Shown in pieces: positions 10,558 to 34,173 of a stretch of 64,000 nt of DNA (position 1 is the stretch's first letter; each line of letters begins with the position of its first letter). The notes under the pieces were generated by a model. It was given only the letters and a program-made list of their open reading frames with translations, was not told the origin of the DNA and did not search any database. This stretch comes from an uncultured cyanobacterium (GTDB taxonomy: Bacteria > Cyanobacteriota > Cyanobacteriia > Phormidesmidales > Phormidesmidaceae). Location: positions 992,001-1,056,000 of the forward strand of contig CAWBZI010000006.1 in NCBI GenBank assembly GCA_963793265.1. Reading direction: 5' to 3'. A program made the translations under genes and the position numbers.

Positions 10558-10569
10558 GAGGAGTGCTGC

Positions 10570-12219
10570 GTGATGTCTGAAAAGGATTCTCTGTGCCTGT
10601 GGCTGGCAATCGATAGGCTGCAAATGCAGCGCGATCACTTTGCGATGTGGATAGTGCGCGCCCCCCATCCGGGCGGGCATGTTCATTACGATCGAGAGTG
10701 GAGCCCGGAGCTAGCGCAGGCGTGGCAAAGCTGGCAGTCTATTTTTTCGCTGCGCGGACTGCCGCAGGTGCCGCATATTCCCTCAGCTTACGTGCCCCAG
10801 TTTGTGCTCGAAGACGTGGCTGAGATGCCAGATGATCCTGTCACCGGGCAGCCTGCAAGCTATAGCAGCCGGTATATGCAGCATTTGGGTGTGAGCTTAT
10901 GGCAGTGGCTATTTGAGGGGCCAATTGAGAGTAGTTTTGAGCGATCGCAGGGTATTGCCATCGGCCAAAACCAACCGCTGCGGCTGCGGCTAGACATTCG
11001 AGATCCTGAGCTGATTGCGCTGCCCTGGGAGATTATGCAGCCGCAGCCAGGTAGCCGGGCGCTGTCTTTGAACCGCAAAATTTTGCTGAGCCGCACCAGC
11101 AACACAGTCGATCCGTTGGAGATAACGGGGCTAGACAATGCGCTGAAGATTTTGCTGGTTATCGGAGAAGATAGTCCAGGGCAAGACGCCCAGCAGGATG
11201 AAGCAGATACTAATGGCGATGACGATGTAATGCTACGGCTCAGTGAGGAGGCCGTACTGCTCAAAAAAATCCTAGAGCAAAGCAGCGATTTGAGTATGCG
11301 ACCTACGGCTAGACGAACCGTAGACGTGCTGCTTCAGCCGAGCGCTGCCGAATTGAGCCGTGTGTTAGAGAAAGGCAGCTATAACGTCTTCTTTTATTCG
11401 GGGCACGGCGTACCAGGGCCAGACGGCGGGCTGTTGTTTTTATCTGATGCTGCCTTAAGTGGCACAGAGTTAGCTCAGGTGCTTGTGCGCGCGAAGGTGA
11501 AGCTGGCCGTATTTAACACCTGCTGGGGCGCGCAGCCGGAGCAAAGTCAGCAGCAGGCGCTTCCTCGTAGCAGCCTGGCAGAGGTGCTGCTATATCACGG
11601 GCTACCGGCGGTGGTGGCAATGCGTGACTCAATAGCTGATGAAGAGGCGATTAGCTTTATTCAGGTGTTTGCCCAAACGCTGGCAGAGCGGAAGCCGGTG
11701 GATGAGGCAGTTGCGATCGCCCGCCAACATCTCCTCACCCTCTACCACTTCAACCAGCCTGCCTGGACGCTGCCTGTGCTGTACATGCACCCGGACTACA
11801 GCGGCACCATTTTACTGAACGAAGAAACCACGCAAATTAACGAACACAGCGACTTTCGCCCCAGGCGGCAGCAGGCCATGTTGCGAGATGCCACTGATAT
11901 TCGCCAAATGTGGCCTATCTACAGCGACGTGATGAGAATTGGCCGCAAACCCGACGACAATGACCTAGTGATTTCTGATCCGTGGGTGTCGAGCAGCCAT
12001 GCCGAAATCTTTCACAGGCGCATCACGGCGCAGAGTCCGGGAGATGGTCTAGAAACCGCTTATTTTTTGCGGGATAATTCTCGATACGGCACGTTTTACC
12101 TCCAAGGCAACGACTGGCGAGAAGTTCACCGTCAGGAGATTACGCTACATTCAGGTACACAAATTCGCTTTGGCAGTAAGTCGGACGGGCGACTGCTAGA
12201 GTTTGTAGTAGAAAACTAG
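10570..12219 (+). CDS. CHAT (caspase/HetF-like) domain protein with C-terminal FHA domain
   Basis: LPWE, YSGHG and FNTCWG (His/Cys dyad), W.LPVLY; FHA motifs IGR...VSSSHA...SRYGT. Confidence 0.87.
   Translation: MMSEKDSLCLWLAIDRLQMQRDHFAMWIVRAPHPGGHVHYDREWSPELAQAWQSWQSIFSLRGLPQVPHIPSAYVPQFVLEDVAEMPDDPVTGQPASYSSRYMQHLGVSLWQWLFEGPIESSFERSQGIAIGQNQPLRLRLDIRDPELIALPWEIMQPQPGSRALSLNRKILLSRTSNTVDPLEITGLDNALKILLVIGEDSPGQDAQQDEADTNGDDDVMLRLSEEAVLLKKILEQSSDLSMRPTARRTVDVLLQPSAAELSRVLEKGSYNVFFYSGHGVPGPDGGLLFLSDAALSGTELAQVLVRAKVKLAVFNTCWGAQPEQSQQQALPRSSLAEVLLYHGLPAVVAMRDSIADEEAISFIQVFAQTLAERKPVDEAVAIARQHLLTLYHFNQPAWTLPVLYMHPDYSGTILLNEETTQINEHSDFRPRRQQAMLRDATDIRQMWPIYSDVMRIGRKPDDNDLVISDPWVSSSHAEIFHRRITAQSPGDGLETAYFLRDNSRYGTFYLQGNDWREVHRQEITLHSGTQIRFGSKSDGRLLEFVVEN
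11713..11720. repeat. HIP1 octamer GCGATCGC (representative copy; many more across the window)
   Basis: Other copies at, e.g., 13120, 17400, 19325, 22769, 22784, 29100, 29136, 33609, 47756. Confidence 0.95.
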
Positions 12220-12346
12220 GTAATAACACTGAACTTTGCCTCAAATGAAGGAAAATTGTTTAGCTTTGCGGAACGGTTGAACGCGCCTCTGTATCCCTTT
12301 TCTGTCACACTTTATAATTTCTGCTAGCACAGATAAACGCACCGCT

Positions 12347-12958
12347 ATGGCTAATCAATCATTCAGCTCTGAGGATAAAGACAGCAAAAACAATGGCCTG
12401 CCTGCGGCTCAAGCTGAGCTGTTGCAGGCTGTTTTAGAAACTGAGGGCTACCCCTGGCTAGCAGATGAAACATCGGTGACATATTCAAAGGAGATAGAAA
12501 ACGCTGGGCTTGCGTTAGAAATTTCTGAAGATGAAGCGGCTCAAGGTTGGCAAGGACTCTCTACACAGCTCAATCAAATGTGGGGTGATCGCACTGCTGA
12601 GGACTCTCTGACAGATCAGCTCGTCGTGAAGTTCGCTGAAAGCCTGCCGAGCGAAGTAATCACGCGCATCGGTGAGAATGCTCAGCGGATCGCCAGTGAG
12701 GCCAAGTCGTCGGGCCAAAGCATGTTGGATCAGATGGTTGCTTGTGTGCAGGATGTAATGACGCAGATGGCCGATGATGACCTGCGCGTGATGGGTAGAC
12801 CGATGGCGATGGCGATGCGCGGCAATAGTGCAGATGAGTTTGTGACGGCAACGATTCAGTCGATACGCACGGCTGAGTGGGAGGCGCTATCACCGATTGA
12901 GCAAGCGCGGCTAAGTTTAGCAGCAGCGCGATATGCCCTTTCACAGGTCGAAGGCTAA
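12347..12958 (+). CDS. Conserved cyanobacterial hypothetical protein
   Basis: 203-aa acidic helical ORF ending WEALSPIEQARLSLAAARYAL; same strand as the PP2C and CHAT genes. Confidence 0.75.
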   Translation: MANQSFSSEDKDSKNNGLPAAQAELLQAVLETEGYPWLADETSVTYSKEIENAGLALEISEDEAAQGWQGLSTQLNQMWGDRTAEDSLTDQLVVKFAESLPSEVITRIGENAQRIASEAKSSGQSMLDQMVACVQDVMTQMADDDLRVMGRPMAMAMRGNSADEFVTATIQSIRTAEWEALSPIEQARLSLAAARYALSQVEG

Positions 12959-12965
12959 AGCAGAA

Positions 12966-13313
12966 TTATTTGCCTTCAGGCTGGAATAGCTGATTGACCA
13001 CGAGCGCTCCAAGTCGGTTAATAAACGGGCAGGTGAGGCCGATGCTGAAGCCTGCTTTAAAGATAAGCTGATTGATTTCCGAGGTGGGTTTAGCAGGATT
13101 GTAGAGGGCGATGAGGAAGGCGATCGCCCCAAAAATCAGCGCAAAAATAACGGCATACAAGACCACAGATGTCACCGCCCGCTCCCACCCTTGCCACGTA
13201 TCCTCAACCCATCGACTCAGCACGGCATTGATACAGGCCGTAGCAGTGCCACTGGCAAATCCGACACAAATTGCGAGCAGAACAGTTTGATCAACGGGCG
13301 TGAGGTAGTTCAT
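12966..13313 (-). CDS. Hypothetical membrane protein
   Basis: 115 aa, about 3 hydrophobic segments; 4-nt overlap with the upstream TPR gene. Confidence 0.7.
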   Translation of the reverse strand: MNYLTPVDQTVLLAICVGFASGTATACINAVLSRWVEDTWQGWERAVTSVVLYAVIFALIFGAIAFLIALYNPAKPTSEINQLIFKAGFSIGLTCPFINRLGALVVNQLFQPEGK

Positions 13314-14611
13314 GAGTTGGGCTGCGTGAGCGATTCTATTTGCTCAATGAAATAATCCTGGCGAAGATCAAGCTGATCGGCAATCACGAGCGCTCGTTCA
13401 AACGCCTTGAGCGCTTCAAAATCATTGCCTTGCTGACGCTGAAGCAACCCAATGCTGTTGTATGCATTCATCACGCCATAGCTGTTGTAAGCCTGCTGCT
13501 CTACAGGCACCAGCAGATTGTAAGCCCCTAGCGCTTCATCAGTAAGGGCAAGGCTTTCGTAAAGCGCACCCAAATCTATAAGCACTTGAGCCGAAAAGCT
13601 GAACTGATCGAACCTTTGGGCGGCGCTGTAGGCTGAGCGATAGTAGGCGATCGCATTGTCAGGCTGGTTGAGTCTGCGGTAGTTTTGAGCGATCGCAAGC
13701 AGCAGTCCCGGCAGCTTCTCTTCGTCACCCTGCCCCTGGTACAGCAAAAGCAAATCCGTCTGTGCGCGGGTCGCATTGGCAAATGAGTCTGCCTGCTGAT
13801 AGCTATAAACTAAACGCTCTAAGTAATCTATTTCCTGAGCCTGATCGCCGTTTGCTCTGGCCGTTTGCAATAGCGCTAAATAAATATCAGCCGCATCGGC
13901 AAATTGAAACCAGGCCAAGTGGAGTTCGGCTAGCGATCGCCGCTGCGGAGTAGGGTCAACCCCTTGCTGGCCAGCAAGCTCAATAAGCTGGCTGTAGACT
14001 TCTACGGTCGAATCAATGTCTCTAAGCGTAGAGAAGGTTTGAGCGATCGCATTTAGCACGACTAAATCCGACTCAGCATCACCGCTAACCAGCAGCCGGG
14101 CTGGTGCCGACTCATCAGGCGGAATTTCAGCAAACTCTTCCGTCTCAGGCTCTAAACCTAACGTCGCCTGTACCGTCTCCCAAATTTCACGCATTCGTAA
14201 GGTCAGCAGTTGCACATCGACCGCGCGCTGATTTTGCCAGGCCAGCGTGGCCGTTCGACTAATCGCATTAAACTCCTCAACCGGGCCGAATATCCGACGC
14301 AGCCGTAGCTCTCGTCGAAATAGCTCAAAGGCCCGATCGACGTTGCCTAGAGCTAGCTGTTGCTGTGCGGCCTGATTCAGTTGTTCTACGCCTGTAGCGA
14401 CTGCGCTTAGCTCTAGCGGGCTGAGGGGCCTATCAACGGTGAGTTCAGGCAGCAGCGGATCGCGAGGTGCGGCGGTGAGGGGGTCAGCAAGAAAGTTTTG
14501 TCGGAGCTGAGGGCTGACCTGTTGGGCGGTCGCTTTAGCAGAGAGAAGACTACCCAGTATTGTTAGGGCGATCGCTGGGTAAAAAACAGCTTGACGTAAC
14601 AGTGAATACAC
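13310..14611 (-). CDS. Secreted tetratricopeptide-repeat protein
   Basis: Signal peptide; repeated TPR-like helices (AIAYY, LGALYE, IGLLQ..G....AL..FERAL). Confidence 0.8.
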   Translation of the reverse strand: MYSLLRQAVFYPAIALTILGSLLSAKATAQQVSPQLRQNFLADPLTAAPRDPLLPELTVDRPLSPLELSAVATGVEQLNQAAQQQLALGNVDRAFELFRRELRLRRIFGPVEEFNAISRTATLAWQNQRAVDVQLLTLRMREIWETVQATLGLEPETEEFAEIPPDESAPARLLVSGDAESDLVVLNAIAQTFSTLRDIDSTVEVYSQLIELAGQQGVDPTPQRRSLAELHLAWFQFADAADIYLALLQTARANGDQAQEIDYLERLVYSYQQADSFANATRAQTDLLLLYQGQGDEEKLPGLLLAIAQNYRRLNQPDNAIAYYRSAYSAAQRFDQFSFSAQVLIDLGALYESLALTDEALGAYNLLVPVEQQAYNSYGVMNAYNSIGLLQRQQGNDFEALKAFERALVIADQLDLRQDYFIEQIESLTQPNS

Positions 14612-14725
14612 AGTTGTTTGCAGAACTTTATGTTCGACGGGCTGGGGGCGAAGCGTAGGCTGAAATTGCGGTAGGCTTGTGACCTGAATAGCAGATCACC
14701 CACCATAGCAAACGCCCACCTCAGT

Positions 14726-15685
14726 ATGTCTTCTAACGTTGCCACTCGTACCGTTCGGATCGGTTCTCGCAAAAGTCAGCTCGCCCTCGTGCAAACCCAC
14801 TGGGTTCAAGCTGAGCTGAGCAAGGCGTATCCCGACATCACCTTTGAAGTCAATACGATGGAGACAAAGGGCGACAAGGTGCTAGACGTGGCGCTCTCAA
14901 AAATCGGTGATAAGGGTCTGTTCACCCAAGAACTCGAAGACGACATGCTCAGTGGCGACATCGATTTTGCGGTGCACTCACTCAAAGATTTGCCCACAAA
15001 TTTGCCCGAAGGGTTGCGGTTGGGCTGTGTCACCAAGCGCGAAGATCCGGCGGACGCTATGGTCGTGCACGAAAAGCACAAGGACAAACAGCTCGATACG
15101 CTGCCTGAAGGGGCAGTGATTGGCACCTCTTCGCTCAGACGCTTAGCACAGCTACGCCACCATTTTCCTCACTTCAAGTTCAAAGATATTCGCGGCAATG
15201 TGAACACCCGGCTGCGCAAGCTAGATGAGGGTGAGTATGACGCGATTGTTTTGGCAGCAGCCGGACTGAATCGGTTGGATATGAGCGATCGCATCCACCA
15301 GCTTCTACCCCCCGAAATTTCACTACATGCCGTTGGGCAAGGGGCTTTGGGCATCGAATGTCGTCAGGGAGACGATGACATCCTCGGATTGCTCAAGGTA
15401 CTAGAGCATGAGCCCACCGCGCAGCGCTGCTATGCCGAAAGAGCCTTTTTGCGCGAATTAGAAGGGGGCTGTCAGGTCCCTATTGGCGTGAATACTATTA
15501 TTGAAGGCGATACGCTGACCCTGAAGGGGATTGTGGCTAGCTTGGACGGGCAGCGCTTAATTTCGGATACGGTGACGGGCGCGCCGGTAGATGCTGAGCA
15601 CATGGGTACTGAGCTGGCGAAACGGCTGCGTGACCAAGGTGCGCAGGAAATTTTGGATGAGATTAATGCGCAGAATCGGTCTTAG
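14726..15685 (+). CDS. hemC: Hydroxymethylbilane synthase (porphobilinogen deaminase)
   Basis: [36 protein letters not shown]. Confidence 0.98.
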
Positions 15686-15822
15686 GTCTGTCTGTGGGGG
15701 TTGGGGTGATCGCTCATAAAGCGCACTTCTGATAGATGTTTGAAAGTCGGCTTTTCGTTAAAAATAGGAAACTATTCAATCAAAAAGTTCGTTTAAGCGC
15801 TTTTGAAAAGCCCAAGCATCCT

Positions 15823-16248
15823 ATGAGAATTACGCCCAACGTTTCCTATCGCGGCATTGAGAAGACCGACGCTTTGGAAAGTCTGATCAATGAAAAAATT
15901 GAAAAGCTAGAGAAGTTTTATCACCAGATTAGTAGCTGTCGGATTGCCTTAGAAAAAGTGCACGATCATCCTGAGAGTGGTTCGCCCTACCGAGTTCGCC
16001 TCGATATTACTGTGCCTGAGAGCCGCGAAGTTGTAGTTGATAAAAGCCCTGATAACGGCGTGCAGTATGCATCTTTAGAAACCGTCATTCGAGATGCCTT
16101 TGACGTTGCAAATAGACAGCTTAAAGAGCTAAACGAACAGCAGCACAACCACATGAAAACGCATGTTCCGGGCCAGCGCGAAATTGTGCTAGATGACCTA
16201 CCGGCTGGCGAAGTGCCTGCCCCCCCGGCTGACGTGACGGCAAGCTAA
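15823..16248 (+). CDS. HPF/RaiA-family ribosome-associated protein
   Basis: Sigma-54 modulation/S30EA-like pattern (KIEKLEKF...CRIALE...YRVRLDITVP...IRDAFD); ATG at 15823 preferred. Confidence 0.82.
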   Translation: MRITPNVSYRGIEKTDALESLINEKIEKLEKFYHQISSCRIALEKVHDHPESGSPYRVRLDITVPESREVVVDKSPDNGVQYASLETVIRDAFDVANRQLKELNEQQHNHMKTHVPGQREIVLDDLPAGEVPAPPADVTAS

Positions 16249-16275
16249 CGCGGCGAAGACAATCCATAATTTGCG

Positions 16276-16309
16276 AAAAGACGGCTAGTTAGATCAAGCC
16301 GTCTTTTTT
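16276..16309 (+). terminator. Rho-independent terminator
   Basis: AAAAGACGGCT...AGCCGTCTTTTTT. Confidence 0.75.
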
Positions 16310-16468
16310 GTGCGCTATATTCTGTCGTCATTCCTCTGACGTTTTGTCAAGACACCTGATCAGCGCGCTGCTGAGCGTCAGGAAGATTGCAAAAGTCTTA
16401 TCTAGAGACATTCCAAATCACTATAAACTTGAACTTATTAAAAATAAGATTGTTAGATAGGTCGTGAT

Positions 16469-17890
16469 ATGCGAATTTTATTTGTGGCCGCCGAAGCCGC
16501 GCCACTGGCTAAAGTTGGTGGCATGGGTGATGTGGTGGGCAGCCTGCCTGCCGTTTTAAGGGCGATGGGCCATGACGTGCGCGTATTCATGCCCTACTAC
16601 AACATCATGGGCGATAAGCTAGAACCGCCCGGCAAGCCTATATGGTGGGGCCAAGCCATGTTCAACTCGTTTGCTGTGTACGAAAGCAGGCTTCCGGGTA
16701 CGGACGTGCCGCTGTATCTATTCGGCCATCCTTGCTTTGATAACGGCATCATCTACGGCGGCGATGATGAGAGCTGGCGATTTACCTTTTTCGCCAATGG
16801 CGCAGCCGAGTTCGCCTGGAACTACTGGAAGCCCAATATCATCCACTGTCATGACTGGCACACTGGAATGCTGCCGGTTTGGAATCATGAAATCTCAGAT
16901 GTTGGCACGGTTTTCACAATTCACAACCTAGCCTATCAAGGCCCCTGGCGTTGGGAGCTAGAGCGCATTGCGTGGTGTCCTTGGTTTATGCAGGGCCACA
17001 ACACAATGGCCGCAGCATTGCAGTATGCAGATCAGGTCAATACGGTATCGCCAACCTATGCCGACCAGATTAAAACACCAGAATACGGTGAGGAACTAGA
17101 GGGTTTGCTGTCCTTTATTAGCGGCAAGCTGAGCGGCATTGTTAATGGCATCGATACAAAGTCTTTTGACCCAGCAACGGATACCAAAATTGAGCATAAC
17201 TACACGGCAAAGACGCTAGATAAGCGGTCAAAGAATAAGGCCGTTGTGCAAAAGGAAATGGGCTTAACTGAGAATCCAGATGGATTTTTGATTGGGCTGG
17301 TGAGTCGGCTGGTGGAGCAAAAGGGCATCGATCTGATTTTGCAGACGATGGATCGGTATTTGGCCTATTCGGATGCGCAGTTTGTGATTTTGGGGACGGG
17401 CGATCGCGTCTATGAAAACCAGCTTTGGGAACTTGCCGCCCGCTACCCAGGTAGAGCCAGCGCCTACATCATGTACAGCGACAGCCTCGCCCGCAAAATC
17501 TATGCAGGCTGCGATGCCTTCCTCATGCCCTCCCGCTTCGAGCCCTGCGGCATCAGCCAAATGGTCGCGATGCGTTACGGCTGCGTACCCATCGTTCGCC
17601 GCACAGGTGGCCTCGTTGATACCGTCAGCCATAACGACCCTGAGAACAAAGCCGGTACAGGCTACTGCTTCGACCGCTACGAGCCTTTAGACCTATTTAC
17701 CTCAATGGTCAGAGCGTCTGAGGCATATCGCTTTAAGCCTCAGTGGGAGGCGCTGCAAAGACGAGCCATGGGTGAAGACGTGGGCTGGGAGAAGTCAGCA
17801 GTAGAGTACGTCAAGCTGTATAGCAAAGTCATGAACATACCCGCAGAAGATCAGCTACCCGTGCAGTACGGCGGCACGGTTGAGATTTAG
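16469..17890 (+). CDS. glgA: Glycogen synthase
   Basis: KVGGMGDV, HCHDWH, TIHNLAYQG, SRLVEQKG, PSRFEPCG, TGGLVD. Confidence 0.97.
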   Translation: MRILFVAAEAAPLAKVGGMGDVVGSLPAVLRAMGHDVRVFMPYYNIMGDKLEPPGKPIWWGQAMFNSFAVYESRLPGTDVPLYLFGHPCFDNGIIYGGDDESWRFTFFANGAAEFAWNYWKPNIIHCHDWHTGMLPVWNHEISDVGTVFTIHNLAYQGPWRWELERIAWCPWFMQGHNTMAAALQYADQVNTVSPTYADQIKTPEYGEELEGLLSFISGKLSGIVNGIDTKSFDPATDTKIEHNYTAKTLDKRSKNKAVVQKEMGLTENPDGFLIGLVSRLVEQKGIDLILQTMDRYLAYSDAQFVILGTGDRVYENQLWELAARYPGRASAYIMYSDSLARKIYAGCDAFLMPSRFEPCGISQMVAMRYGCVPIVRRTGGLVDTVSHNDPENKAGTGYCFDRYEPLDLFTSMVRASEAYRFKPQWEALQRRAMGEDVGWEKSAVEYVKLYSKVMNIPAEDQLPVQYGGTVEI

Positions 17891-17914
17891 AGTCTCTAGC
17901 AGTTTCATTCAATC

Positions 17915-17950
17915 AAAAAGCCCTCGTCCAGCTAATGAACGAGGGCTTCT
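17915..17950. terminator. Probably bidirectional terminator between glgA and tRNA-Asp
   Basis: AAAAAGCCCTCGT...ACGAGGGCTTCT hairpin between convergent genes. Confidence 0.7.
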
Positions 17951-17982
17951 TATATGCGACCTTAAGTTGTGAATAACTTAAA

Positions 17983-18056
17983 CGGGCCCGACGAGATTCG
18001 AACTCGCAACTTCCGCCGTGACAGGGCGGTGCTCTAACCAATTGAACTACGGGCCC
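17983..18056 (-). tRNA. trnD: tRNA-Asp (GTC)
   Basis: Reverse complement GGGCCCGTAGTTCAATTGGTTAGAGCACCGCCCTGTCACGGCGG...GTTCGAATC...CGGGCCCG. Confidence 0.97.
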
Positions 18057-18103
18057 TTGCTTAGTAGAGGTCGCAGTTCTGCTCCCTTCTCAAGGCGATC
18101 TCT

Positions 18104-18132
18104 ATTGTGCGGATATGAGGACGCTTTGTCAA
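18104..18132 (-). promoter_or_regulatory. Sigma70-type promoter of tRNA-Asp
   Basis: Minus strand: TTGACA, 17-nt spacer, CACAAT. Confidence 0.6.
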
Positions 18133-18249
18133 ACATTTTTAGGTGAAAATGTTTTGGATGGTCATAACAGTCTGAGATAGGAGAAGCGATCGCCAAAGCG
18201 ATGCTGAAGTTTTTGAACTTGCTGTAGGAAGAGGTGTAAAGAGGAATAG

Positions 18250-19194: not shown

Positions 19195-19222
19195 TTTTAA
19201 TCGATGGGTTCTCTATTTCTTT

Positions 19223-20776: not shown

Positions 20777-20817
20777 AACCAGAAACTACTTTGATAGCGT
20801 AGCGTACTGAGGCGCTT

Positions 20818-21051: not shown

Positions 21052-21118
21052 CTTCAGTAACCCCTGCGCTATAACAATCTTCTCATGCCTACTTATGAGC
21101 GCGTTATGACTCAGATTC

Positions 21119-26894: not shown

Positions 26895-27092
26895 AGTTCT
26901 AAAGGGCAACGGGGGCTATGGCTTGCCGCCAAAGATTGTGATTGAAGCCATAGGATCAAATTTTAATTGAGCCATTGGCCACTGACACCTAACTTAGGCA
27001 AGTGTTGTGGCCTTGGATGTACTTACCTTTAACATCTAAATAGACCCCCTTAACTGTGGCCGCAGCAGCAAGGGTCTAATCACGATGCAGCG

Positions 27093-27332
27093 CTAAGCAG
27101 CTTTCGACTTGATGAAATCGACGGCTGCTTGCACGGTGCTAATGCTTTCAGCCGACTCGTCGGGGATTTCAATATCAAATTCTTCTTCTAGGGCCATCAC
27201 TAGCTCAACGGTATCGAGAGAGTCAGCGCCTAAGTCATTAGCGAAGTTAGCCTCTGGCTTTACTTCAGCTTCGTCTACACCCAACTGTTCAGAAACAATT
27301 TTCTGAACCTTTCCTAAAATGTCGTCACTCAT
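27093..27332 (-). CDS. acpP: Acyl carrier protein
   Basis: [23 protein letters not shown] at 27332. Confidence 0.97.
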
Positions 27333-27684
27333 TACTGTACTTACCTTCCAACAGCGGCAAAAAGCGCAAAAAAATAAACCCAACTTGGAATGTAAGGTGT
27401 AGCGATCGCCACGCTTACAAATCTCCAAATTTAGGTTTCATCATCTTATAGGAAAGCGTGACCCCTCGAAATTTTCTCGTCATCCTGCCGGGTTTGCAGA
27501 GCGCTGCCAAAAGAGAGTAGAGCCTCAGCAAGTATTACATTCCATAAATTTTTACCTATGAAAGTGTCGGATCACCTGTCACCACGGGATAAACTGCGGT
27601 GTGGGTTAGAGTCGCTGAAGGCATCTTAAACAAGCCTGCGCCTCCTCATAGCCTGCAAGAGAGGACTAGCGACACCAAGGCTAG

Positions 27685-27966
<282 letters not shown>

Positions 27967-28080
27967 GCTATCTGTTGAACAAGATTTAAAGGCTGAAGCG
28001 CTGAGTGCCCTAGCAAACGTTTTCTTGTGATGAGGGAAATGTAATAGGCCATTAGTGAGCTTCTTGCTTTTCAAGACTAG

Positions 28081-28130
28081 AAAATCCCTCGTTGAAGTCT
28101 GTGTAGTGACAGATATCAGCGGGGGATTTT
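28081..28130. terminator. Hairpin between convergent psaC and DUF2442 genes
   Basis: AAAATCCCTCGTTGA...TCAGCGGGGGATTTT. Confidence 0.65.
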
Positions 28131-28170
28131 GATTTAAATAAAAATACTTCGGCTAAAGGGGTTTCTCGTT

Positions 28171-28485
28171 TTAACTGGCCGTTGCCATAAGTCCTTTCAT
28201 CCAAGCCTCACGGCCATAGACGCCCGATAGCAGGTCGGCAACTTTAAAGGCTTGATCTAGCTCATCCCATAAAATGTACTGCCCGCCACCATAGACCTCG
28301 ACAGTAGATAGTTGCTGATCTGAAACGTCTACAAGCGGCACCCAACCATCTTGTGACAACTTAACCATCTCTAGCAAACGAACTGGCCAGGCATGTCGAG
28401 AGCCATCATTTAGAGTCACAATCACTTCTCTGGCATCGGCTTTGTAGATAACACTCTTCGCTAGTTTTAAGGCTTCGTTATTCAT
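28171..28485 (-). CDS. DUF2442-like protein (putative antitoxin)
   Basis: VTLNDG....P...VEV.GGG..I.WDELD...V..LL pattern; the 81-codon upstream extension crosses a repeat element. Confidence 0.7.
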   Translation of the reverse strand: MNNEALKLAKSVIYKADAREVIVTLNDGSRHAWPVRLLEMVKLSQDGWVPLVDVSDQQLSTVEVYGGGQYILWDELDQAFKVADLLSGVYGREAWMKGLMATAS

Positions 28486-28529
28486 AGAATTGCTCAGCGT
28501 TGTCTTTTGTTTGAGTGAGTAGAGGCGCG

Positions 28530-28711
28530 TAGTCAAACTAAGGATGAAACATCGCTCACTGCATTGCCCCCCAGCCCCCACTTTGGGGGAGCACCGCTGA
28601 TCCAGAACGTTTTGTTCTCCTAAGCAGTATCGGTTCAGCACGTCTTGCCTCAGAGCCCCAAAGTGGGGACGGGGGCAATGCAGTGAGCTTCGTCTACTTT
28701 CAGTTTGATTA
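28530..28711. mobile_element. MITE-like / REP-like element with long imperfect terminal inverted repeats
   Basis: GCTCACTGCATTGCCCCC (from 28554) pairs perfectly with GGGGGCAATGCAGTGAGC (to 28688); CCCCACTTTGGGG pairs with CCCCAAAGTGGGG; outer TAGTCAAACT pairs with AGTTTGATTA. Confidence 0.7.
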
Positions 28712-28783
28712 GGCCGACCGACCGACATCTACTAACTTTGTAACCTTACAAGGCTCTATCGACTTCGCAAGCGAGATTTCGCA

Positions 28784-29692
28784 TTATCTAGCAGCAGAGA
28801 CTTTTTTAACTGCCAGCAGGCTTCCGACCAAGCCAATGCTAACGCCCAATCCGCCCAAAGCAGTTGGCAGCAGAATCCACTGTTGCGGCGTGAGCTGTAG
28901 GCCATTTACTAAGAATTCGATGAAGGCGGGTTGCTGACTTGCCGATAGCGATTTTAGACCTTTTTGGACTGCGAGCAAAAGCCCCCAGGAGCCGCCTGCG
29001 CCGACAATACCAAACGTGCAGCCTTGCAGTAGAAAGGGTAGATAGATCCAGCTACGGGTGGCACCGACAAGCTGCATTACCTCGATTTCATGACGGCGGG
29101 CGATCGCAATCAACCGTATCGTAGTCGTCACCACCGCGATCGCTGTCATACTCAACAGACCCACCACCGTCGAACTCACCCACCGCAGCCCCGTATTCAA
29201 GTCGCGTAGCTGCTGAATGACCTCGCTCACGTAGAGCACATCATTCACCCCATCCATATTCTTCAAAAGGTTCGCAAGCTGAGGAACCTGCTGAGCATCT
29301 CGCGCTTTTACCTTCAGCTCATCAACCAGCGGGTTGCCTTTGAGCTGCGCTGAAGCATTAGACACATCAGAAAGTCCTAAGTCTTCAGTAAGCTGCGCCC
29401 AAGCCTGCTCTTTACTCACCGCTTCCACGTCTACTACGCCCGGCAATCTTCTCACCTGAGAAGTCAAAGAGCCCGCATCTACGCCGCTGTCTAAATAAGT
29501 AGAGATCACGAGCTGCGAGCCAAACTGATTGAGCAGCCCTTCTATCTGCCAGCTTGCCTGCAAGCTAACGCCGAATAGAAACAGCAGTACGGTCATGGTG
29601 CTCATCGCGGCCCAGTTCATCCAGCCGCCGCGCCGCAGACCTCGTAGGGTTTCGTTGAGCAGGTAGTCGGTTTTGGTGAGCGATCGCAACAT
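28784..29692 (-). CDS. ftsX: Cell division permease-like protein FtsX
   Basis: 4-TM layout; TIRLIAIARRHEIEVMQLVGAT..WI.LPF.LQG. Confidence 0.92.
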   Translation of the reverse strand: MLRSLTKTDYLLNETLRGLRRGGWMNWAAMSTMTVLLFLFGVSLQASWQIEGLLNQFGSQLVISTYLDSGVDAGSLTSQVRRLPGVVDVEAVSKEQAWAQLTEDLGLSDVSNASAQLKGNPLVDELKVKARDAQQVPQLANLLKNMDGVNDVLYVSEVIQQLRDLNTGLRWVSSTVVGLLSMTAIAVVTTTIRLIAIARRHEIEVMQLVGATRSWIYLPFLLQGCTFGIVGAGGSWGLLLAVQKGLKSLSASQQPAFIEFLVNGLQLTPQQWILLPTALGGLGVSIGLVGSLLAVKKVSAAR

Positions 29693-29920
29693 GGGGCTTA
29701 CCTTACGTCTTAAGTCGTGGAGGGAGAATCAAGATAGGCTTCCCTTCTTCGTACCTTCTATCAACTGAATTTGATTAGGTAAAAGCAATTCGCAACGAAT
29801 TTCGCCGCACGTATCTCGAAGTGAGTGTGAGTTGTTACAATAAAAGTGTTCCACAAAACGTTTAACCACTGGTTTACCTCCTTACAAATCGAAGGGCGTT
29901 TTGACCTCATTTTTAGAATC

Positions 29921-30484
29921 ATGGCCGCAGTCATCGACGTTGAAAAAAAGAAGCTTAAAAACCCACCGCTCACCATTTCTTACCTGGGCAATCGTGGGCT
30001 AAGAACGCCCTCTAAGCGCGTCACTAAAATAGATGATGAGCTGCGATCGCTCGTACGAAAAATGCTGCAAACCATGTACAGCGAAGACGGCATTGGCTTA
30101 GCAGCACCTCAAGTTGGCGTCAACAAGCAGCTATTAGTCATAGACGCCGATCCTGAAAACGAAGACGCACCGCCGCTCGTGCTGGTTAATCCTAAAATCA
30201 CTCGCTACAGCAAAGAGATGGCAAAGGGGCAAGAAGGCTGCTTGAGCATTCCAGGCGTTTACTTAGACGTAATTAGACCGGCAGCGGTAGAAGTGAGCTT
30301 CAAAGATGAAAACGGTAAGCCGCGTAAGATGCAGGCCGATGACCTAGTAGCGCGCGTCATTCAGCACGAGATGGATCACTTAGACGGCGTACTGTTTGTT
30401 GATCGGGTGGAAAATTCTATTGCGCTCAATCAAGAGCTGAAGAAGAACGGCTTTGAGGTTAAGCACGTTCAAAAGGTGAAGTAA
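29921..30484 (+). CDS. def: Peptide deformylase
   Basis: GIGLAAPQ, EGCLS, QHEMDHL; ATG at 29921. Confidence 0.97.
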   Translation: MAAVIDVEKKKLKNPPLTISYLGNRGLRTPSKRVTKIDDELRSLVRKMLQTMYSEDGIGLAAPQVGVNKQLLVIDADPENEDAPPLVLVNPKITRYSKEMAKGQEGCLSIPGVYLDVIRPAAVEVSFKDENGKPRKMQADDLVARVIQHEMDHLDGVLFVDRVENSIALNQELKKNGFEVKHVQKVK

Positions 30485-30583
30485 AGCGCTTTCTACAGGT
30501 CGCTTTTAGCGCTTTCTTTAGGGAGGCGATCTCCGTTAGATTGAAAGAAGACTGAATAAATAAGTTCTTAGTAGGAAACGGTT

Positions 30584-30781
30584 GTGACTCCAAAAAGTGG
30601 TGCGTATTTAGGGATAGCTTGTTTGGCTGCGATCGCCGCAGTCGGTTCCATATTTGAGCTATCTTCTGGCGATCCGAATTGGGGTCAGGGGCCAACGATT
30701 GCAACGCTAGCGCTATGTGCACCAGCAGTTGTGATTGCCTTTGTAGCAGCGGTAAAAGATGCCCGCGCCAACATGGAATGA
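30584..30781 (+). CDS. Small conserved cyanobacterial membrane protein
   Basis: 65 aa, two TM helices around GSIFELSSG.P..G. Confidence 0.75.
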   Translation: MTPKSGAYLGIACLAAIAAVGSIFELSSGDPNWGQGPTIATLALCAPAVVIAFVAAVKDARANME

Positions 30782-30802
30782 TGACGCGGGAGAGCCTTGG
30801 CT

Positions 30803-31252
30803 TTATTCGTACAGCCAGGGCTTCATAGCAGGCTCCCAGCTACAGAGTTCACTCTCATCAAACCACAGCTTAATTTCACTTTGCGCAGTTTCAGGCGCAT
30901 CGGAGCCGTGGATAATGTTGCGGCCAATTGTAATGCCGTAGTCGCCGCGAATGGTGCCGGGCTCAGCGTCTAAAGGATTGGTTGCGCCAATGATTTTACG
31001 CGCAGAGGCAATCACGCCCTCGCCTTCCCACACCATGGCCACTACAGGCGCAGAAATAATGTAGTCCACGAGTCCCTTAAAGAAAGGACGCTCTTTGTGC
31101 ACTGCGTAGTGCGCTTCGGCTAGCTCGCGAGAAACGGCCATTTGCTTGAGGCCGACTAGCGTGAAGCCTTTGGCCTCAAACTTACCGATAATGTTGCTTA
31201 CCAAGCCGCGCTGCACGCCGTCAGGCTTGATCATGATAAAACTCTTTTCCAA
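30803..31252 (-). CDS. ndk: Nucleoside-diphosphate kinase
   Basis: [25 protein letters not shown] start. Confidence 0.97.
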
Positions 31253-31392
31253 TTGACAAGTGCTCCTTAAAAAGCCGATGAGTCGTTACGAAATTTAAGA
31301 CAGATGCGTCTAAAACCTTTCCTATGCTCAGCAACCAAGGTCAGTTTGTAAAGCGGTTTTTAGAAAACACTTTCATATTTAGCGAAATCTCA

Positions 31393-32109
31393 TCAGCCGC
31401 GTACTGCCGTCACGTCTATCGTGATCGTGCCATTACTCGAATCAGATTTGCTTGGCTGTGAGCTAGCTTTGGGCTCTGGCAACCTAATAACGGGTTTATC
31501 GGTAGGCTCTGGGTTTGAAACAGTTCTCTGCGCCACTGATTTCGCCGTTAGATCTTCAGACTGTGAAAGCTGTCGTAGCGTTCTGATTTGCTTGGCGTTT
31601 GACCAAGCCGCATGAGCCTGTTGCGCCTGGGCTCGCTCTGCTTGGGCTCTCCTTACGTGCATCTGCTCTGCATAGGCCCAAGCGGCTTCTGCTTGAGTGG
31701 CTTGCGGGTGATGCACAGAGGCTAAATTAAACACGTAGATGATGTCGCCTTGAGGCGTGGTTTCAAAAAAGGCCGAGAATGCCTGCGCCTGCGTGTTCAA
31801 GTAGGCTTGAGCTGCCGTACCGTTCATTTGAGTTCGCATTGCAAAATCTAAAACGCTGATGCGGCCCTGCTGCTGCTGAAGGAGCTGATAAAACTTGGCG
31901 TTGATTCGAGCCTGCTGCTTTTGTCTGTGCTGCTTTTGCTTGCGGTTTTGCTGCCATAGGTAATAGCTGCCTGCTGCTAAGCCAGCGATCGCAAACACTG
32001 GCAGCAAAAGCCTCAACAGCAGCACAACCACTAAAGCCAGCAACCCTACGCCTAAAACCAAGCGGCCTTTAATTTCAAGATCCGAACGAGATGGCATCTT
32101 ACCCTTCAA
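31393..32109 (-). CDS. Hypothetical membrane protein
   Basis: N-terminal TM region, then FYQLLQQQQGRISVLDFA...G.IIY.F winged-helix-like segment. Confidence 0.7.
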   Translation of the reverse strand: MKGKMPSRSDLEIKGRLVLGVGLLALVVVLLLRLLLPVFAIAGLAAGSYYLWQQNRKQKQHRQKQQARINAKFYQLLQQQQGRISVLDFAMRTQMNGTAAQAYLNTQAQAFSAFFETTPQGDIIYVFNLASVHHPQATQAEAAWAYAEQMHVRRAQAERAQAQQAHAAWSNAKQIRTLRQLSQSEDLTAKSVAQRTVSNPEPTDKPVIRLPEPKASSQPSKSDSSNGTITIDVTAVRG

Positions 32110-32210
32110 CTATGCTTCATAGCGTCGTTAATTTGAGCTTCTCAAAAGCTCCCCTGTACTCTAGTGGTAAGGGTGAAAATTGGCTACTCATTCGCTACTT
32201 TATTTCTGTT

Positions 32211-32567
32211 TTATTTAAAAGGATCTTCGGCAATCGGATCGCCTGCGAATATTTGATAGGCCGCGATCGCAATCCGTTCCAAATCTTCATCTAACAGCGG
32301 CGGCCAGGGCACCCGAGCCGCCCGCCCCGACTCAAACAAATTACGGCTTTCGTAAGCCACCAAAAACAGCGCGTGAGCTAGCTTGCGATCTAGCATTGGC
32401 GAGGCTCTAACGGTATCGTGAACGACCTTAAGCGCCAGCAAAATTGAGGTGACCTGTCCGGGCACAGGCGGCTGTCCCATCCGTAGCCGACCTAGAAACG
32501 TGCTGTCGGTTTCGTGTTCAGGAAGGGTCTGATTGGCGAGTACGTGACAAGCCGCTTTAAAGTCCAT
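32211..32567 (-). CDS. Conserved cyanobacterial hypothetical protein
   Basis: 118 aa; FL.RL..G.PPVPGQVTSILLALK and WPPLL.EDL.RI motifs. Confidence 0.75.
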   Translation of the reverse strand: MDFKAACHVLANQTLPEHETDSTFLGRLRMGQPPVPGQVTSILLALKVVHDTVRASPMLDRKLAHALFLVAYESRNLFESGRAARVPWPPLLDEDLERIAIAAYQIFAGDPIAEDPFK

Positions 32568-32925
32568 TCAATCGAGCGCTCAATTTCAATCGTTTTATTC
32601 AAAACGCCTGCTGCTGGCGTTGTCATTGAAGATCAACTAAAAAACACGAATAAGAATTGCCGAAAAAATATCAAGCAAGCAAGGCCCAATATAAAGAGAA
32701 ACTGATGTAACGATAGTTGCCCGGCAGGGGCACTCTTTAGCTATCTAATCAAAACCTGTTGAAGTAATTTAGGCAAGTTTTACAGAGAATTCATCCTTAC
32801 GCGAGTGGCTTAGCAAGAAATCAAGTCAGACTGGTATAACCCCGCACGACTTTACTTCAGCACTGCCGTGATGACTTCTTTTCGACTCGTCGGATGATTC
32901 ATTATGTGGCCCTTTCTTTTACCCT

Positions 32926-34173
32926 ATGACCTCCTCTCTTTCGTCAGCCCTTCCGCCAGTCCAGAAAGCTCACTCATCAAAGGCTGAAGTCGTTCCATTT
33001 GTCGATCTTTCCTGGCAGCACCGCCCCATTCAGACCGATATTTTAGCCGTGGTAGAGCGGGTAATGGCCAAAGGTGATTACGTGCTAGGCAAAGACGTGG
33101 CTGAGTTTGAGGTGGCGTTTGCTCAGGCTTGTCAAACGGTTGAAGGGGTAGGCGTTGGCTGCGGTACGGATGCGATCGCATTGGGCCTACGCGCCTGTGG
33201 TATCTGTGATGGCGATGAGGTGATCTTACCAGCCAATACCTTTGTCGCCACGCTAATCGGCATTGTTAGAGCCGGGGCCGTTCCCGTTTTTGTAGACTGC
33301 GACCCTGACACTGCGCTGATAGATCTAGAGGCCGCGGCTGAAGCGATTACGCCTAGAACTCGGGCGATCGTGCCAGTGCACTTATATGGTCAGATGGTGT
33401 CACCTTCGGGGCTAAAGGCGATCGCTCAGCAGCACGACCTGATTATTTTAGAAGACGCTGCCCAAGCGCACTTAGCTGAGCGAGAGGGCTGTAAAGCCGG
33501 TTCAGTGGGGATGGCGGCAGCGTTTAGCTTCTATCCCAGTAAGAACTTGGGCGCTTTGGGCGATGGGGGAATGCTGGTGACTGGGCAGCCCGTGGTGGCG
33601 CAAACGGTGCGATCGCTCCGCAACTACGGGGCCACACGCAAATACTTCCACACCGACCCAGGCGGCACGAACAGTCGGCTCGACACCATCCAAGCTGGCG
33701 TACTCGCGCTCAAGCTGCCGCACTTACCCGAGTGGAACCTGGAGCGCAACCGACTCGCCGCCTACTACGATCAAGCGCTTGCGCCATTAGCTAATGACGG
33801 GCTACTGCCGATCAAAAACGTCAGCGGGAAGGGCCACGTCTATCATCTATACGTTGTGCGCGTTACGAACGAATGCCCAGTAGATCGCACTCGTTTGCAG
33901 CTAGAACTCAGCAGTCAAGATATTCAGACCGGCATTCACTACCCTATTCCCTGTCATCTACAGCCCGCCTTCAAGCCGCTTGGGCATAGAGCCGGTGACT
34001 TTCCCCATTCAGAGGCGCTAAGCCAGGAAATTTTATCGCTGCCTATGTATCCTGGACTAAAAACAGAGCAGATTGATCGCGTCGTCGCTGAGATTAAGGC
34101 AGCTATAGCGACAGCGAAGGGTCAAAGTCAGGAGACTGAGAACCCTCCTTTAGTTGCCGGGGAATCTATTTAG
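32926..34173 (+). CDS. DegT/DnrJ/EryC1/StrS-family PLP aminotransferase (nucleotide-sugar)
   Basis: PVHLYG, EDAAQAH, SFYPSKNLGALGDGG, NSRLD. Confidence 0.93.
   Translation: MTSSLSSALPPVQKAHSSKAEVVPFVDLSWQHRPIQTDILAVVERVMAKGDYVLGKDVAEFEVAFAQACQTVEGVGVGCGTDAIALGLRACGICDGDEVILPANTFVATLIGIVRAGAVPVFVDCDPDTALIDLEAAAEAITPRTRAIVPVHLYGQMVSPSGLKAIAQQHDLIILEDAAQAHLAEREGCKAGSVGMAAAFSFYPSKNLGALGDGGMLVTGQPVVAQTVRSLRNYGATRKYFHTDPGGTNSRLDTIQAGVLALKLPHLPEWNLERNRLAAYYDQALAPLANDGLLPIKNVSGKGHVYHLYVVRVTNECPVDRTRLQLELSSQDIQTGIHYPIPCHLQPAFKPLGHRAGDFPHSEALSQEILSLPMYPGLKTEQIDRVVAEIKAAIATAKGQSQETENPPLVAGESI

What the first reader, a model, noticed from the sequence alone, without database searches (positions are those of the whole stretch)
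11681..33660. G/C strand skew flips at HIP1 octamers, independent of gene orientation
Seen: around many GCGATCGC sites the + strand is G(T)-rich just 5' of the site and C(A)-rich just 3' of it. Hand counts: site 11713 (+ gene) has 15G:5C in 11681-11712 and 2G:21C in 11721-11760. Site 19325 (- gene) has 12G:1C in the 24 nt before and 3G:11C in the 24 nt after. Site 13120 (- gene) has 19G:2C in 13081-13119 and 4G:9C in 13128-13160. The same look appears at 17400, 22769, 29100, 33609 and near 53404, 53984 and 58736. It occurs inside unrelated genes on both strands, so neither transcription direction nor replichore explains it. Known: HIP1 is methylated, its function is unresolved, and a methylation-directed repair role has been proposed. 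Inference: this may be the mutational footprint of repeated strand-specific processing starting at HIP1, such as nicking and 5'->3' resection that exposes the strand lying 5' of the site to C->T/A->G damage. The sites were picked by eye, so selection bias is possible.
Basis: partly seen in the sequence, partly recalled or inferred. Interest (0 to 1): 0.75.

Follow-up and report, generated by a model that had tools for sequence, protein, structure and literature searches.

The report
Polar G/C skew anchored at HIP1
In this cyanobacterium almost every copy of the abundant palindrome GCGATCGC (HIP1) sits where the DNA switches from G-rich to C-rich, a footprint that builds up after a site is born and suggests a one-directional DNA repair or recombination step starts at HIP1.

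Summary
All hand counts are exact. Of 6,888 HIP1 sites, 86.7% show the G-to-C flip against 46% of random positions; in the window it is 65 of 72. At fourfold-degenerate sites the + strand GC skew is about ±0.6 next to the site, ±0.4 at 21-50 nt and ±0.2 at 76-100 nt, whatever the gene strand, frame or contig. HIP1 is the outlier among 142 palindromic octamers.

New here:
- The skew tracks site presence between orthologues.
- It grows with site age and is absent at newly gained sites.
- Its strength is lineage-dependent: strong in this genus, about 0 in one HIP1-rich genome.
- Polarised substitutions show no hypermutation and no C>T asymmetry, only excess N>G on the strand running into HIP1.

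Best reading: a polar DNA process starts at HIP1. The enzyme is not identified. Earlier notes of this scan reported the same flip on other DNA. I found no description in print.

The parts
11681..11760 (.). HIP1 at 11713-11720 inside a + strand ORF (10570-12219), with a G-rich 5' flank and a C-rich 3' flank
   Evidence: 15G:5C before, 2G:21C after; S=+29; ORF strand
13081..13160 (.). HIP1 at 13120-13127 inside a - strand ORF (12966-13313), same flip on the + strand
   Evidence: 19G:2C before, 4G:9C after; S=+24; ORF strand
19301..19356 (.). HIP1 at 19325-19332 inside a - strand ORF (19223-20776), same flip
   Evidence: 12G:1C before, 3G:11C after; S=+24; ORF strand
17400..17407 (.).
   Evidence: S=+14; ORF strand
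22769..22776 (.).
   Evidence: S=+22
29100..29107 (.).
   Evidence: S=+10
33609..33616 (.).
   Evidence: S=+24
53404..53991 (.). Two HIP1 sites (53404, 53984) in one + ORF (53107-54243), plus a third at 53656
   Evidence: S=+15 and +20
58734..58741 (.).
   Evidence: S=+13
1..64000 (.). All 72 HIP1 sites of the window; between neighbours the + strand skew runs as a sawtooth, C-rich after one site and G-rich before the next
   Evidence: 72 sites against 1.87 expected; 65 of 72 with S>0; profile by distance to the nearest site

Best explanation
HIP1 sites anchor a strand-polar DNA process. Over evolutionary time it makes the strand running 5'->3' into the site G-rich and the strand running 5'->3' away from it C-rich.

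Shown here: the effect is caused by the site, acts on DNA rather than on protein or mRNA, accumulates slowly after a site is born, and fades after the site decays. It is carried by an excess of N>G substitutions (A>G, T>G, C>G) on the strand running into the site, at the expense of their complements, without raising the total substitution rate.

Inferred: the most likely mechanism is a nick or break at HIP1 followed by 5'->3' removal and resynthesis of the strand leading away. The strand running into the site then serves as template, so mismatches in a flank are resolved, or created, in a strand-biased way. Tract lengths would be roughly 100 nt with a tail to about 1 kb. This adds polarity to Elhai's proposal of HIP1-directed mismatch repair. 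How active the process is differs between lineages.
For: - Specificity: HIP1 has D=+0.154 (4-fold +0.389) against 141 control palindromic octamers with mean -0.003, sd 0.021.
- Synonymous sites carry it. 4-fold skew is about +0.59/-0.61 at 1-10 nt, +0.41/-0.44 at 21-30, +0.21/-0.26 at 76-100, with a tail to about 800 nt. G rises from 0.27 to 0.455 and C falls from 0.265 to 0.117, with A and T nearly unchanged.
- Codon positions 1 and 2 shift less, yet amino-acid usage shifts 10-40%.
- DNA-level symmetry: within + genes alone, left and right magnitudes mirror each other at all distances. The result is the same in - genes, all 3 frames and 7 of 7 contigs.
- Causality from orthologues (G000 4-fold D at 11-30 nt): conserved sites 0.61, G000-only sites 0.375, positions where only G004 has the site 0.08.
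- Causality from site age: sites in 3 of 3 close genomes 0.58±0.04 (n=226), in 2 of 3 0.30±0.07 (n=67), in 1 of 3 -0.10±0.10 (n=37).
- Ongoing polarity: A>G/T>C is 1.77±0.26 at 1-15 nt, falling to 1.00±0.06 at 401-800 nt, with A>G+T>C constant at 0.20-0.23. T>G/A>C is 1.52 and C>G/G>C is 1.94 at 1-30 nt.
- The rate matrix implies a positive equilibrium skew (+0.27, bootstrap 0.12-0.41).
- Literature context: HIP1 raises transformation and recombination efficiency in a methylation-dependent way (abstract of 10.1101/2024.09.10.611283). Resected flanks of human meiotic break hotspots show the same polarity, with A>G and C>G among the asymmetric types (passages of PMC7615360).
Against: - The substitution rates measured in the three terminal branches imply only about half the observed skew (+0.27 against 0.59-0.65 at 1-30 nt; +0.19 against 0.37-0.39 at 31-100 nt). 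Those branches show net erosion (G>A 265 against A>G 126 near sites).
- No nicking enzyme was identified. MutH is absent in 5 of 5 genomes and Vsr in 5 of 5. MutS and MutL are present whether or not the genome has skew.
- The conserved orphan C5 methyltransferase correlates only imperfectly with skew.
- Strictly intergenic DNA shows 3-4 times less skew than 4-fold sites. I can only attribute this to constraint and faster turnover: 25 of 43 intergenic HIP1 sites against 159 of 441 genic ones lie in DNA not alignable across the trio.
- Abundant HIP1 without skew in G017 shows that the site alone is not sufficient.
- Composition and interspecies substitutions cannot separate mutation bias from fixation bias.
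Confidence: 0.55

Rival explanations
1. Polar biased gene conversion. Recombination between genome copies, or with transforming DNA, starts at HIP1 and forms heteroduplex of fixed strand polarity in each flank. Mismatch correction there favours G on the strand running into the site. This is a fixation bias, not a mutation bias.
For: - The base shift looks like a linear field: log-odds about +0.6 for G and -0.7 for C relative to A/T (computed).
- There is no rise in total substitution rate.
- Terminal branches show an excess of changes away from the favoured state, as expected if a fixation bias opposes mutation.
- HIP1 is reported to act in a Chi-like way in transformation (abstract).
Against: A fixation bias should lower G>A as much as it raises A>G on the favoured strand. 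Observed G>A is 0.100 near against 0.093 far, and C>T/G>A is about 1. The asymmetry is confined to gains of G. No recombination data were available.
Confidence: 0.25
2. Natural selection keeps the 3'-ending strands next to HIP1 G-rich because that helps a HIP1 function, for example loading of recombinase on the tails left after a break at HIP1.
For: The strands that would become 3' tails after a break at HIP1 are the G-rich ones (polarity). The reported preference of RecA for GT-rich DNA is recalled, not checked here.
Against: It needs effective selection on each of hundreds of thousands of synonymous sites: 42.7% of the 830,198 4-fold sites lie within 200 nt of a HIP1. The effect reaches out to several hundred nt. 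New sites carry no skew and acquire it only slowly. The T component is weak. HIP1-rich G017 manages without it.
Confidence: 0.07
3. Cytosine (and adenine) deamination of the strand exposed as single-stranded DNA after resection from HIP1. This is the chemistry the first reader proposed.
For: The polarity fits, and an A>G excess on the 5'-flank strand is seen.
Against: C>T/G>A is 0.96 at 1-30 nt and shows no distance trend. T does not increase where C is lost. T>G and C>G asymmetries are not deamination products. There is no hypermutation.
Confidence: 0.05
4. The skew is not caused by HIP1. Either HIP1 arises where a G-rich stretch meets a C-rich one, or the pattern comes from coding context, an extended palindrome (hairpin), or assembly error near a methylated motif.
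For: The left half of HIP1 is slightly G-skewed and the right half C-skewed, so such junctions could seed near-HIP1 words (sequence logic only).
Against: - Newly gained sites have no flank skew.
- Orthologous positions coding the same protein without the site have none.
- Mirror complementarity is at or below expectation: 0.2558 against 0.2559 at k=11-30.
- The pattern recurs in four independently assembled genomes of the genus and is concentrated at 4-fold sites of intact ORFs.
Confidence: 0.03

Closest known systems
HIP1 (GCGATCGC) and Elhai's proposed GmeC-directed mismatch repair (Life 2015, PMC4390886; passages read)
   Same: Same motif and same hyper-abundance. The model also has a nick at methylated HIP1 followed by degradation and resynthesis of one strand, with an effect range of about 1 kb.
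   Different: The paper reports only 1-2 nt extensions such as GGCGATCGCC. It has no flank skew and no polarity. Here the footprint is polar, spans 100-800 nt, and varies in strength between lineages. The extension is rare in this genus (0.04-0.07 of sites).
Methyl-directed mismatch repair of E. coli (Dam/MutH/MutS/MutL)
   Same: A short methylated palindrome containing GATC acts as strand-entry site. The effect depends on distance over hundreds of nt. MutS and MutL are present.
   Different: No MutH homologue was found. E. coli excision works in both directions (recalled knowledge) and is not known to leave a flank skew. The footprint here implies one direction only.
Strand-asymmetric mutagenesis around human meiotic double-strand-break hotspots (Hinch et al. 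2023, PMC7615360; passages read)
   Same: Asymmetry flips at the site. C>N and A>N changes, including A>G and C>G, fall on the strand left single-stranded by 5'->3' resection, which is the same polarity as here.
   Different: There it is hypermutation over about 2 kb in a eukaryote and includes deamination-type C>T. Here there is no rate increase, no C>T asymmetry, and a shorter range.
Replication-associated GC skew (sign change at origin and terminus)
   Same: G>C on one strand with a sign change at a defined point, and a weaker T>A component.
   Different: That operates at megabase scale with two switch points per replicon. Here there are 6,888 switch points with an amplitude of ±0.6 at 4-fold sites. 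Regional skew (±0.13) merely adds an offset.
Very-short-patch repair (Vsr) at 5-methylcytosine sites
   Same: Nick 5' of a deaminated m5C, then polar 5'->3' resynthesis by Pol I (recalled knowledge). C5 methyltransferases are present in this genus.
   Different: No Vsr homologue. The excess of the m5C-decay variant GTGATCGC is specific to G000 and not shared by G004, which has the same skew. Patches would need to be far longer and far more frequent than deamination allows.

Membership tests
HIP1 (highly iterated palindrome 1) | Exact octamer GCGATCGC, many-fold over-represented | tested here: met
   72 in the window against 1.87 expected; 6,888 in 5.68 Mb against 307 for the reversed word
HIP1 (highly iterated palindrome 1) | Occurs in genes on both strands and between genes | tested here: met
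   3,241 in + ORFs, 3,178 in - ORFs, 459 intergenic, 9 at ORF edges (my own ORF calls)
Methyl-directed MMR (Dam/MutH type) | MutH-family nicking endonuclease | tested here: not met
   PF02976 found in 0 of 5 genomes; the E. coli control was found
Methyl-directed MMR (Dam/MutH type) | MutS and MutL present | tested here: met
   PF00488 and PF08676 found in 5 of 5 genomes, including the skew-negative G017
Methyl-directed MMR (Dam/MutH type) | Nick on the unmethylated strand at a hemimethylated site | not testable with these tools
   Needs methylome and nick mapping
Elhai's GmeC-directed repair model | CGATCG-specific C5 methyltransferase present | tested here: inconclusive
   An orphan C5 MTase is conserved in the genus (72% identity between G000 and G004; also G009 and G001), but its specificity was not tested. 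It is absent from G021, which has intermediate skew, and present in weak-skew G034.
Elhai's GmeC-directed repair model | A GmeC-specific nicking enzyme | not tested
   No candidate identified. The neighbours of the MTase are unrelated genes (subtilase, PIN; hydrolase, PALP).
Very-short-patch repair | Vsr endonuclease | tested here: not met
   PF03852 found in 0 of 5 genomes; controls were found
Break-associated strand-asymmetric mutagenesis (meiotic hotspot type) | Substitution asymmetry that flips sign at the site | tested here: met
   A>G/T>C 1.77, T>G/A>C 1.52 and C>G/G>C 1.94 near sites, about 1.0-1.1 far away
Break-associated strand-asymmetric mutagenesis (meiotic hotspot type) | Raised mutation rate in the flanks | tested here: not met
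   4-fold substitutions per branch: 0.140, 0.138, 0.139, 0.144 and 0.134 from 1-30 nt out to >400 nt
Replication-associated GC skew | Sign follows the replichore | tested here: not met
   The flip is present in both the lowest and the highest quartiles of regional skew

The most novel reading that the evidence does not exclude
HIP1 is the entry site of a previously unrecognised, MutH-independent, one-directional excision-resynthesis (or break-resection) pathway of cyanobacteria. Its polarity, tract length (about 100 nt, with a tail to about 1 kb) and activity in each lineage are written into the genome as a sawtooth of synonymous G/C skew. The pathway is strong enough to shift amino-acid usage next to each of thousands of sites. 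The amplitude of the skew then becomes a comparative readout that can be used to find the enzyme by phylogenetic profiling.
Probability: 0.3. Interest if true: 0.9.

Novelty: new variant of a known kind. Interest (0 to 1): 0.85.

Why it matters
HIP1 has been known for about thirty years without an agreed function; papers read here still call it elusive. A polar footprint that depends on the site and grows with its age is direct genomic evidence that some DNA transaction starts at HIP1 and runs one way along each strand.

It turns the open question into concrete tests: map nicks or ends at HIP1, measure the strand-resolved mutation spectrum against signed distance, and correlate skew amplitude with gene content across genomes.

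It also shows that a short motif can structure synonymous composition over 43% of the fourfold sites of a genome and shift protein composition. That matters for codon-usage, selection and skew analyses in cyanobacteria.

Tried and rejected
- **Coding or gene-strand explanation:** rejected. Sense-strand skew is only +0.039, and the flip is identical in + and - genes and in all frames.
- **mRNA-level cause:** unlikely, because upstream and downstream magnitudes mirror each other within one gene orientation.
- **Extended palindrome or hairpin:** rejected.
- **Replichore effect:** rejected.
- **Control octamers:** the sort was spoiled by empty values and redone. The runner-up, ATCGCGAT, overlaps a HIP1 in 160 of 298 cases.
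- **HIP1 intrinsic property:** rejected. G017 has D(11-30)=0.008 with 1,048 sites.
- **Polarised SNPs with the window's own genome:** not possible, because same-genus relatives are only 70-85% identical to it. I used the G004/G007/G009 trio (about 90% identical) instead.
- **m5C lead:** C5 MTases are present in the genus and absent from G017 and G020. However, the orthologue is missing in G021 and present in weak-skew G034, and the GTGATCGC excess is not shared by G004. Not supported as the cause.
- **Vsr and MutH:** absent. **MutS and MutL:** uninformative.
- **Oriented sites:** left and right flanks of a site are not anticorrelated (r=0.15 against 0.32 at random positions).
- **Depletion of complementary bases at -1/+1** (ratios 0.64-0.81): -1 and +1 are 9 nt apart and so share a codon position, so this is probably a coding-phase effect rather than avoidance of longer palindromes.
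- **Not done:** no structure, complex or read-mapping job was run, and no supplementary files were consulted.

Full report
**1.

The window has 72 HIP1 sites against 1.87 expected. The genome (G000: 5.68 Mb, 7 contigs, GC 0.507) has 6,888.

An unselected profile over 6,887 sites gives the following + strand GC skew (5' flank / 3' flank):

| Distance (nt) | GC skew |
|---|---|
| 1-10 | +0.32 / -0.32 |
| 11-20 | +0.18 / -0.19 |
| 41-60 | +0.11 / -0.12 |
| 81-100 | +0.06 / -0.08 |

The T/A component is small, about +0.04/-0.06.

Per site, S=(G-C)left50-(G-C)right50 is positive in 86.7% of 6,888 sites, against 46.1% of 20,664 random positions. S is at least 10 in 50.3% against 8.8%, and at most -10 in 0.8% against 8.9%. 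In the window 65 of 72 sites are positive, 4 negative and 3 zero. In the finding interval 27 of 30 are positive and none negative.

Because HIP1 is a palindrome and the two strands are statistically equivalent, the antisymmetry is a single statement: on either strand, DNA 5' of HIP1 is G-rich.

**2. Controls**

I called genes with a simple ORF and codon-score method: 4,762 ORFs covering 87% of the genome. Starts are the longest possible, and the caller was not validated against an annotation. Overall sense-strand skew is only +0.039.

At fourfold-degenerate sites the skew is much larger than at all positions and is the same in + and - genes. At 11-20 nt it is +0.444/-0.471 in + genes and +0.461/-0.482 in - genes. 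It is also the same in all three frames and on 7 of 7 contigs. Regional skew (±0.13) only adds an offset.

With each position assigned to its nearest HIP1, the 4-fold skew is:

| Distance (nt) | 4-fold GC skew |
|---|---|
| 1-10 | about +0.59 / -0.61 |
| 11-20 | +0.46 / -0.49 |
| 21-30 | +0.41 / -0.44 |
| 31-50 | +0.34 / -0.40 |
| 76-100 | +0.21 / -0.26 |
| 101-150 | +0.14 / -0.20 |

A tail reaches about 800 nt.

The change is a G<->C swap. On the 5' side G goes from 0.27 to 0.455 and C from 0.265 to 0.117, while A and T barely move. Codon positions 1 and 2 shift less. Even so, amino-acid usage in the 14 codons upstream versus downstream differs: Met 1.41, Val 1.33, Glu 1.30, Gly 1.19; Thr 0.75, Asn 0.79, Ile 0.80, Pro 0.81.

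Among 142 palindromic octamers with at least 30 copies, HIP1 has D=+0.154 (4-fold +0.389). The 141 others have mean -0.003 and sd 0.021. The runner-up, ATCGCGAT (0.094), overlaps a HIP1 in 160 of 298 cases.

Of the 24 one-mismatch variants, only GTGATCGC and GCGATCAC keep the skew.

Strictly intergenic DNA has the same sign but is 3-4 times weaker.

**3. It is not a general property of HIP1**

D(11-30 nt, all positions) in samples of 65-400 kb:

| Group | Genome: D |
|---|---|
| This genus | G004 0.179, G007 0.213, G001 0.150 (G000 about 0.17) |
| Same family, other genera | G021 0.104, G047 0.033 |
| Other families | G028 0.140 (short range), G020 0.069, G014 0.048, G034 0.045, G037 0.043, G017 0.008 |

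The genus values also have long range. G017 has 1,048 sites in its 400 kb sample. G022 had only 18 sites and is not counted. The sign is the same wherever a signal exists.

**4. The skew follows the site**

*G004 against G000* (218 alignment blocks, 253 kb, 73% identity). There were 183 conserved HIP1 sites, 118 G004-only, 86 G000-only, and 21 dropped for gaps. G000 4-fold D at 11-30 nt:

| Class | D |
|---|---|
| Conserved sites | 0.61 |
| G000-only sites | 0.375 |
| Positions where only G004 has the site | 0.08 |

Within the last class, the 21 one-mismatch orthologues keep 0.44, and those with two or more mismatches have about 0. G004 DNA at orthologues of G000-only sites has D=0.025 (all positions).

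*The close trio G004/G007/G009* (about 90% identical; 236,241 three-way aligned positions). 4-fold D by distance bin:

| HIP1 present in | n | 1-10 | 11-30 | 31-60 | 61-100 | 101-150 |
|---|---|---|---|---|---|---|
| All three genomes | 226 | 0.63 | 0.58 | 0.38 | 0.28 | 0.20 |
| Two of three | 67 | 0.48 | 0.30 | 0.27 | 0.15 | 0.12 |
| One only (mostly recent gains) | 37 | 0.24±0.14 | -0.10±0.10 | 0.09 | 0.00 | 0.065 |

So the skew does not precede the site. It accumulates after birth and decays after loss.

Conserved sites in G000 and G004 still carry 0.6-0.7 while sites lost in one lineage carry about 0.1, and the two genomes are only 73% identical overall. I infer the process has stayed active in both lineages; I did not measure 4-fold identity between them directly.

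**5. What kind of process**

Substitutions were polarised by majority rule on the three terminal branches at 30,552 fourfold sites. Bases are expressed on the strand on which the position lies 5' of its nearest three-way-conserved HIP1.

- **Total rate is flat:** 0.140 (1-30 nt), 0.138, 0.139, 0.144 and 0.134 (>400 nt). There is no hypermutation.
- **The asymmetry is in gains of G** at 1-30 nt: A>G/T>C 1.67, T>G/A>C 1.52, C>G/G>C 1.94. By contrast C>T/G>A is 0.96. Far from sites all ratios are 1.04-1.14.
- **More data confirm the gradient.** With 45,052 transition-synonymous third positions, A>G/T>C falls from 1.77±0.26 (1-15 nt) through 1.38, 1.32, 1.18, 1.17, 1.33 and 1.21 to 1.00±0.06 (401-800 nt).
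- **The sum is conserved.** A>G+T>C stays at 0.20-0.23: A>G is 0.139 against 0.10, and T>C is 0.078 against 0.10. This is a redistribution between strands.
- **C>T/G>A has no distance trend**.

This excludes cytosine deamination of an exposed strand as the driver. It fits a process in which the strand running into HIP1 acts as the template, or winning strand, in its flank.

The same polarity is produced by 5'->3' removal of the strand leading away from a nick or break at the site. It is also the polarity of asymmetric mutations (including A>G and C>G) in resected flanks of human meiotic break hotspots, although there it comes with hypermutation (passages of PMC7615360).

Ideas for the source of the base bias are inference from recalled knowledge, not tested here. 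They include insertion of C during resynthesis, and strand-biased fixing of the commonest replication mispairs.

**6. What does not fit**

- The measured rates imply an equilibrium skew of +0.27 (bootstrap 0.12-0.41) at 1-30 nt against 0.59-0.65 observed. At 31-100 nt it is +0.19 against 0.37-0.39.
- The terminal branches show net erosion, against a general background excess of GC>AT changes of 1.16-1.36 fold.
- The shortfall of about one half is also seen far from sites (0.07 against 0.13). It may therefore be a property of the method or of this clade's general disequilibrium, but I cannot show that. A fixation bias or differential survival of sites may add to the mutational asymmetry.
- The weaker intergenic signal is only partly explained by faster turnover (25 of 43 intergenic against 159 of 441 genic HIP1 sites not alignable in the trio).

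**7. Enzymes**

- Vsr and MutH were found in 0 of 5 genomes.
- MutS and MutL were found in 5 of 5, including G017.
- C5 methyltransferase genes occur in G000 (8 matches), G004 (1) and G007 (4), but not in G017 or G020.
- One orphan C5 methyltransferase is conserved in the genus: 72% identity between G000 and G004, with unrelated neighbours, and also present in G009 and G001. However, it is missing in G021 and present at 59% identity in weak-skew G034.
- The excess of the m5C-decay variant is specific to G000 (ts/HIP1 0.111 against 0.041 in G004).
- No determinant of the lineage differences was found.

**8. Literature**

Searches for 'highly iterated palindrome'+'skew' (4 papers, none relevant), 'HIP1'+'GCGATCGC' (18 papers) and 'HIP1'+'cyanobacteri'+'strand asymmetr' (0 papers) found no description of a flank skew.

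What I read:
- Passages of Elhai 2015 (PMC4390886). It reports 1-2 nt extensions and proposes GmeC-directed mismatch repair with a MutH analogue.
- Passages of Xu et al. 2018 (PMC5861425). The word 'skew' does not occur.
- Passages of the 2026 GBE paper (PMC13756078). 'Skew' is used only for sampling.
- Outline and abstract of Kamoku and Nielsen 2024.

The library holds only open-licence papers and preprints, and I consulted no supplements, so a prior description elsewhere cannot be excluded.

Earlier notes of this scan report the same flip on two other pieces of this genome and on four other genomes. I re-derived the phenomenon independently. What I added is the lineage contrast, the orthologue and age tests, and the polarised spectrum.

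**9. Verdict**

This is a real, strong, HIP1-specific, site-caused polar footprint. It is apparently undescribed in print. The mechanism is narrowed but not identified.

Noticed in passing
G000 whole genome (for example window 1-64000): GTGATCGC and GCGATCAC, the C>T products at the cytosine that a CGATCG C5 methylase would modify, are by far the commonest one-mismatch HIP1 variants in G000 (766, 0.111 per HIP1; transition/transversion ratio 3.55). This is not so in same-genus G004 (0.041; 1.21) or in other genomes.
   Followed up: partly
G000:C1:1596714-1597613, C4:631059-632138, C6:511604-512638, C6:501121-502155, C5:279-1346, C1:809848-811017, C4:93034-94084: G000 gives eight C5-cytosine methyltransferase matches (PF00145) at seven loci, against one in G004. 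One locus (C1:809848-811017) has in-frame TGA and TAG stops, and the C4:93034-94084 locus accounts for two of the matches.
   Followed up: no
G004/G007/G009 trio, 4-fold sites far from HIP1: There is a general excess of GC>AT over AT>GC substitutions on the terminal branches (1.16-fold beyond 400 nt, up to 1.36-fold near HIP1). Fourfold GC content is therefore above the equilibrium implied by current rates (0.545 against 0.507).
   Followed up: partly
G000 genome, positions -1 and +1 of HIP1: Complementary base pairs at -1/+1 are depleted (observed/expected 0.64-0.81), and GGCGATCGCC makes up only 0.04-0.07 of HIP1 in this genus against 0.10-0.51 elsewhere. This is probably a codon-phase effect, since the two positions are 9 nt apart, but it was not resolved.
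   Followed up: partly
G017 and G020 (400 kb samples): In these genomes, which have no or weak skew, variants at HIP1 positions 1/8 (CGATCG kept, outer G/C lost) are very common (632 per 1,051 HIP1 and 697 per 398 HIP1). In this genus they are rare (733 per 6,888).
   Followed up: no
G000 one-mismatch variants at positions 1 or 8: When only one end of HIP1 is mutated, the flank next to the intact half seems to keep a partial 4-fold skew (about 0.1-0.18), while the flank next to the mutated end loses it. Samples are small (n about 90-170 per variant).
   Followed up: no
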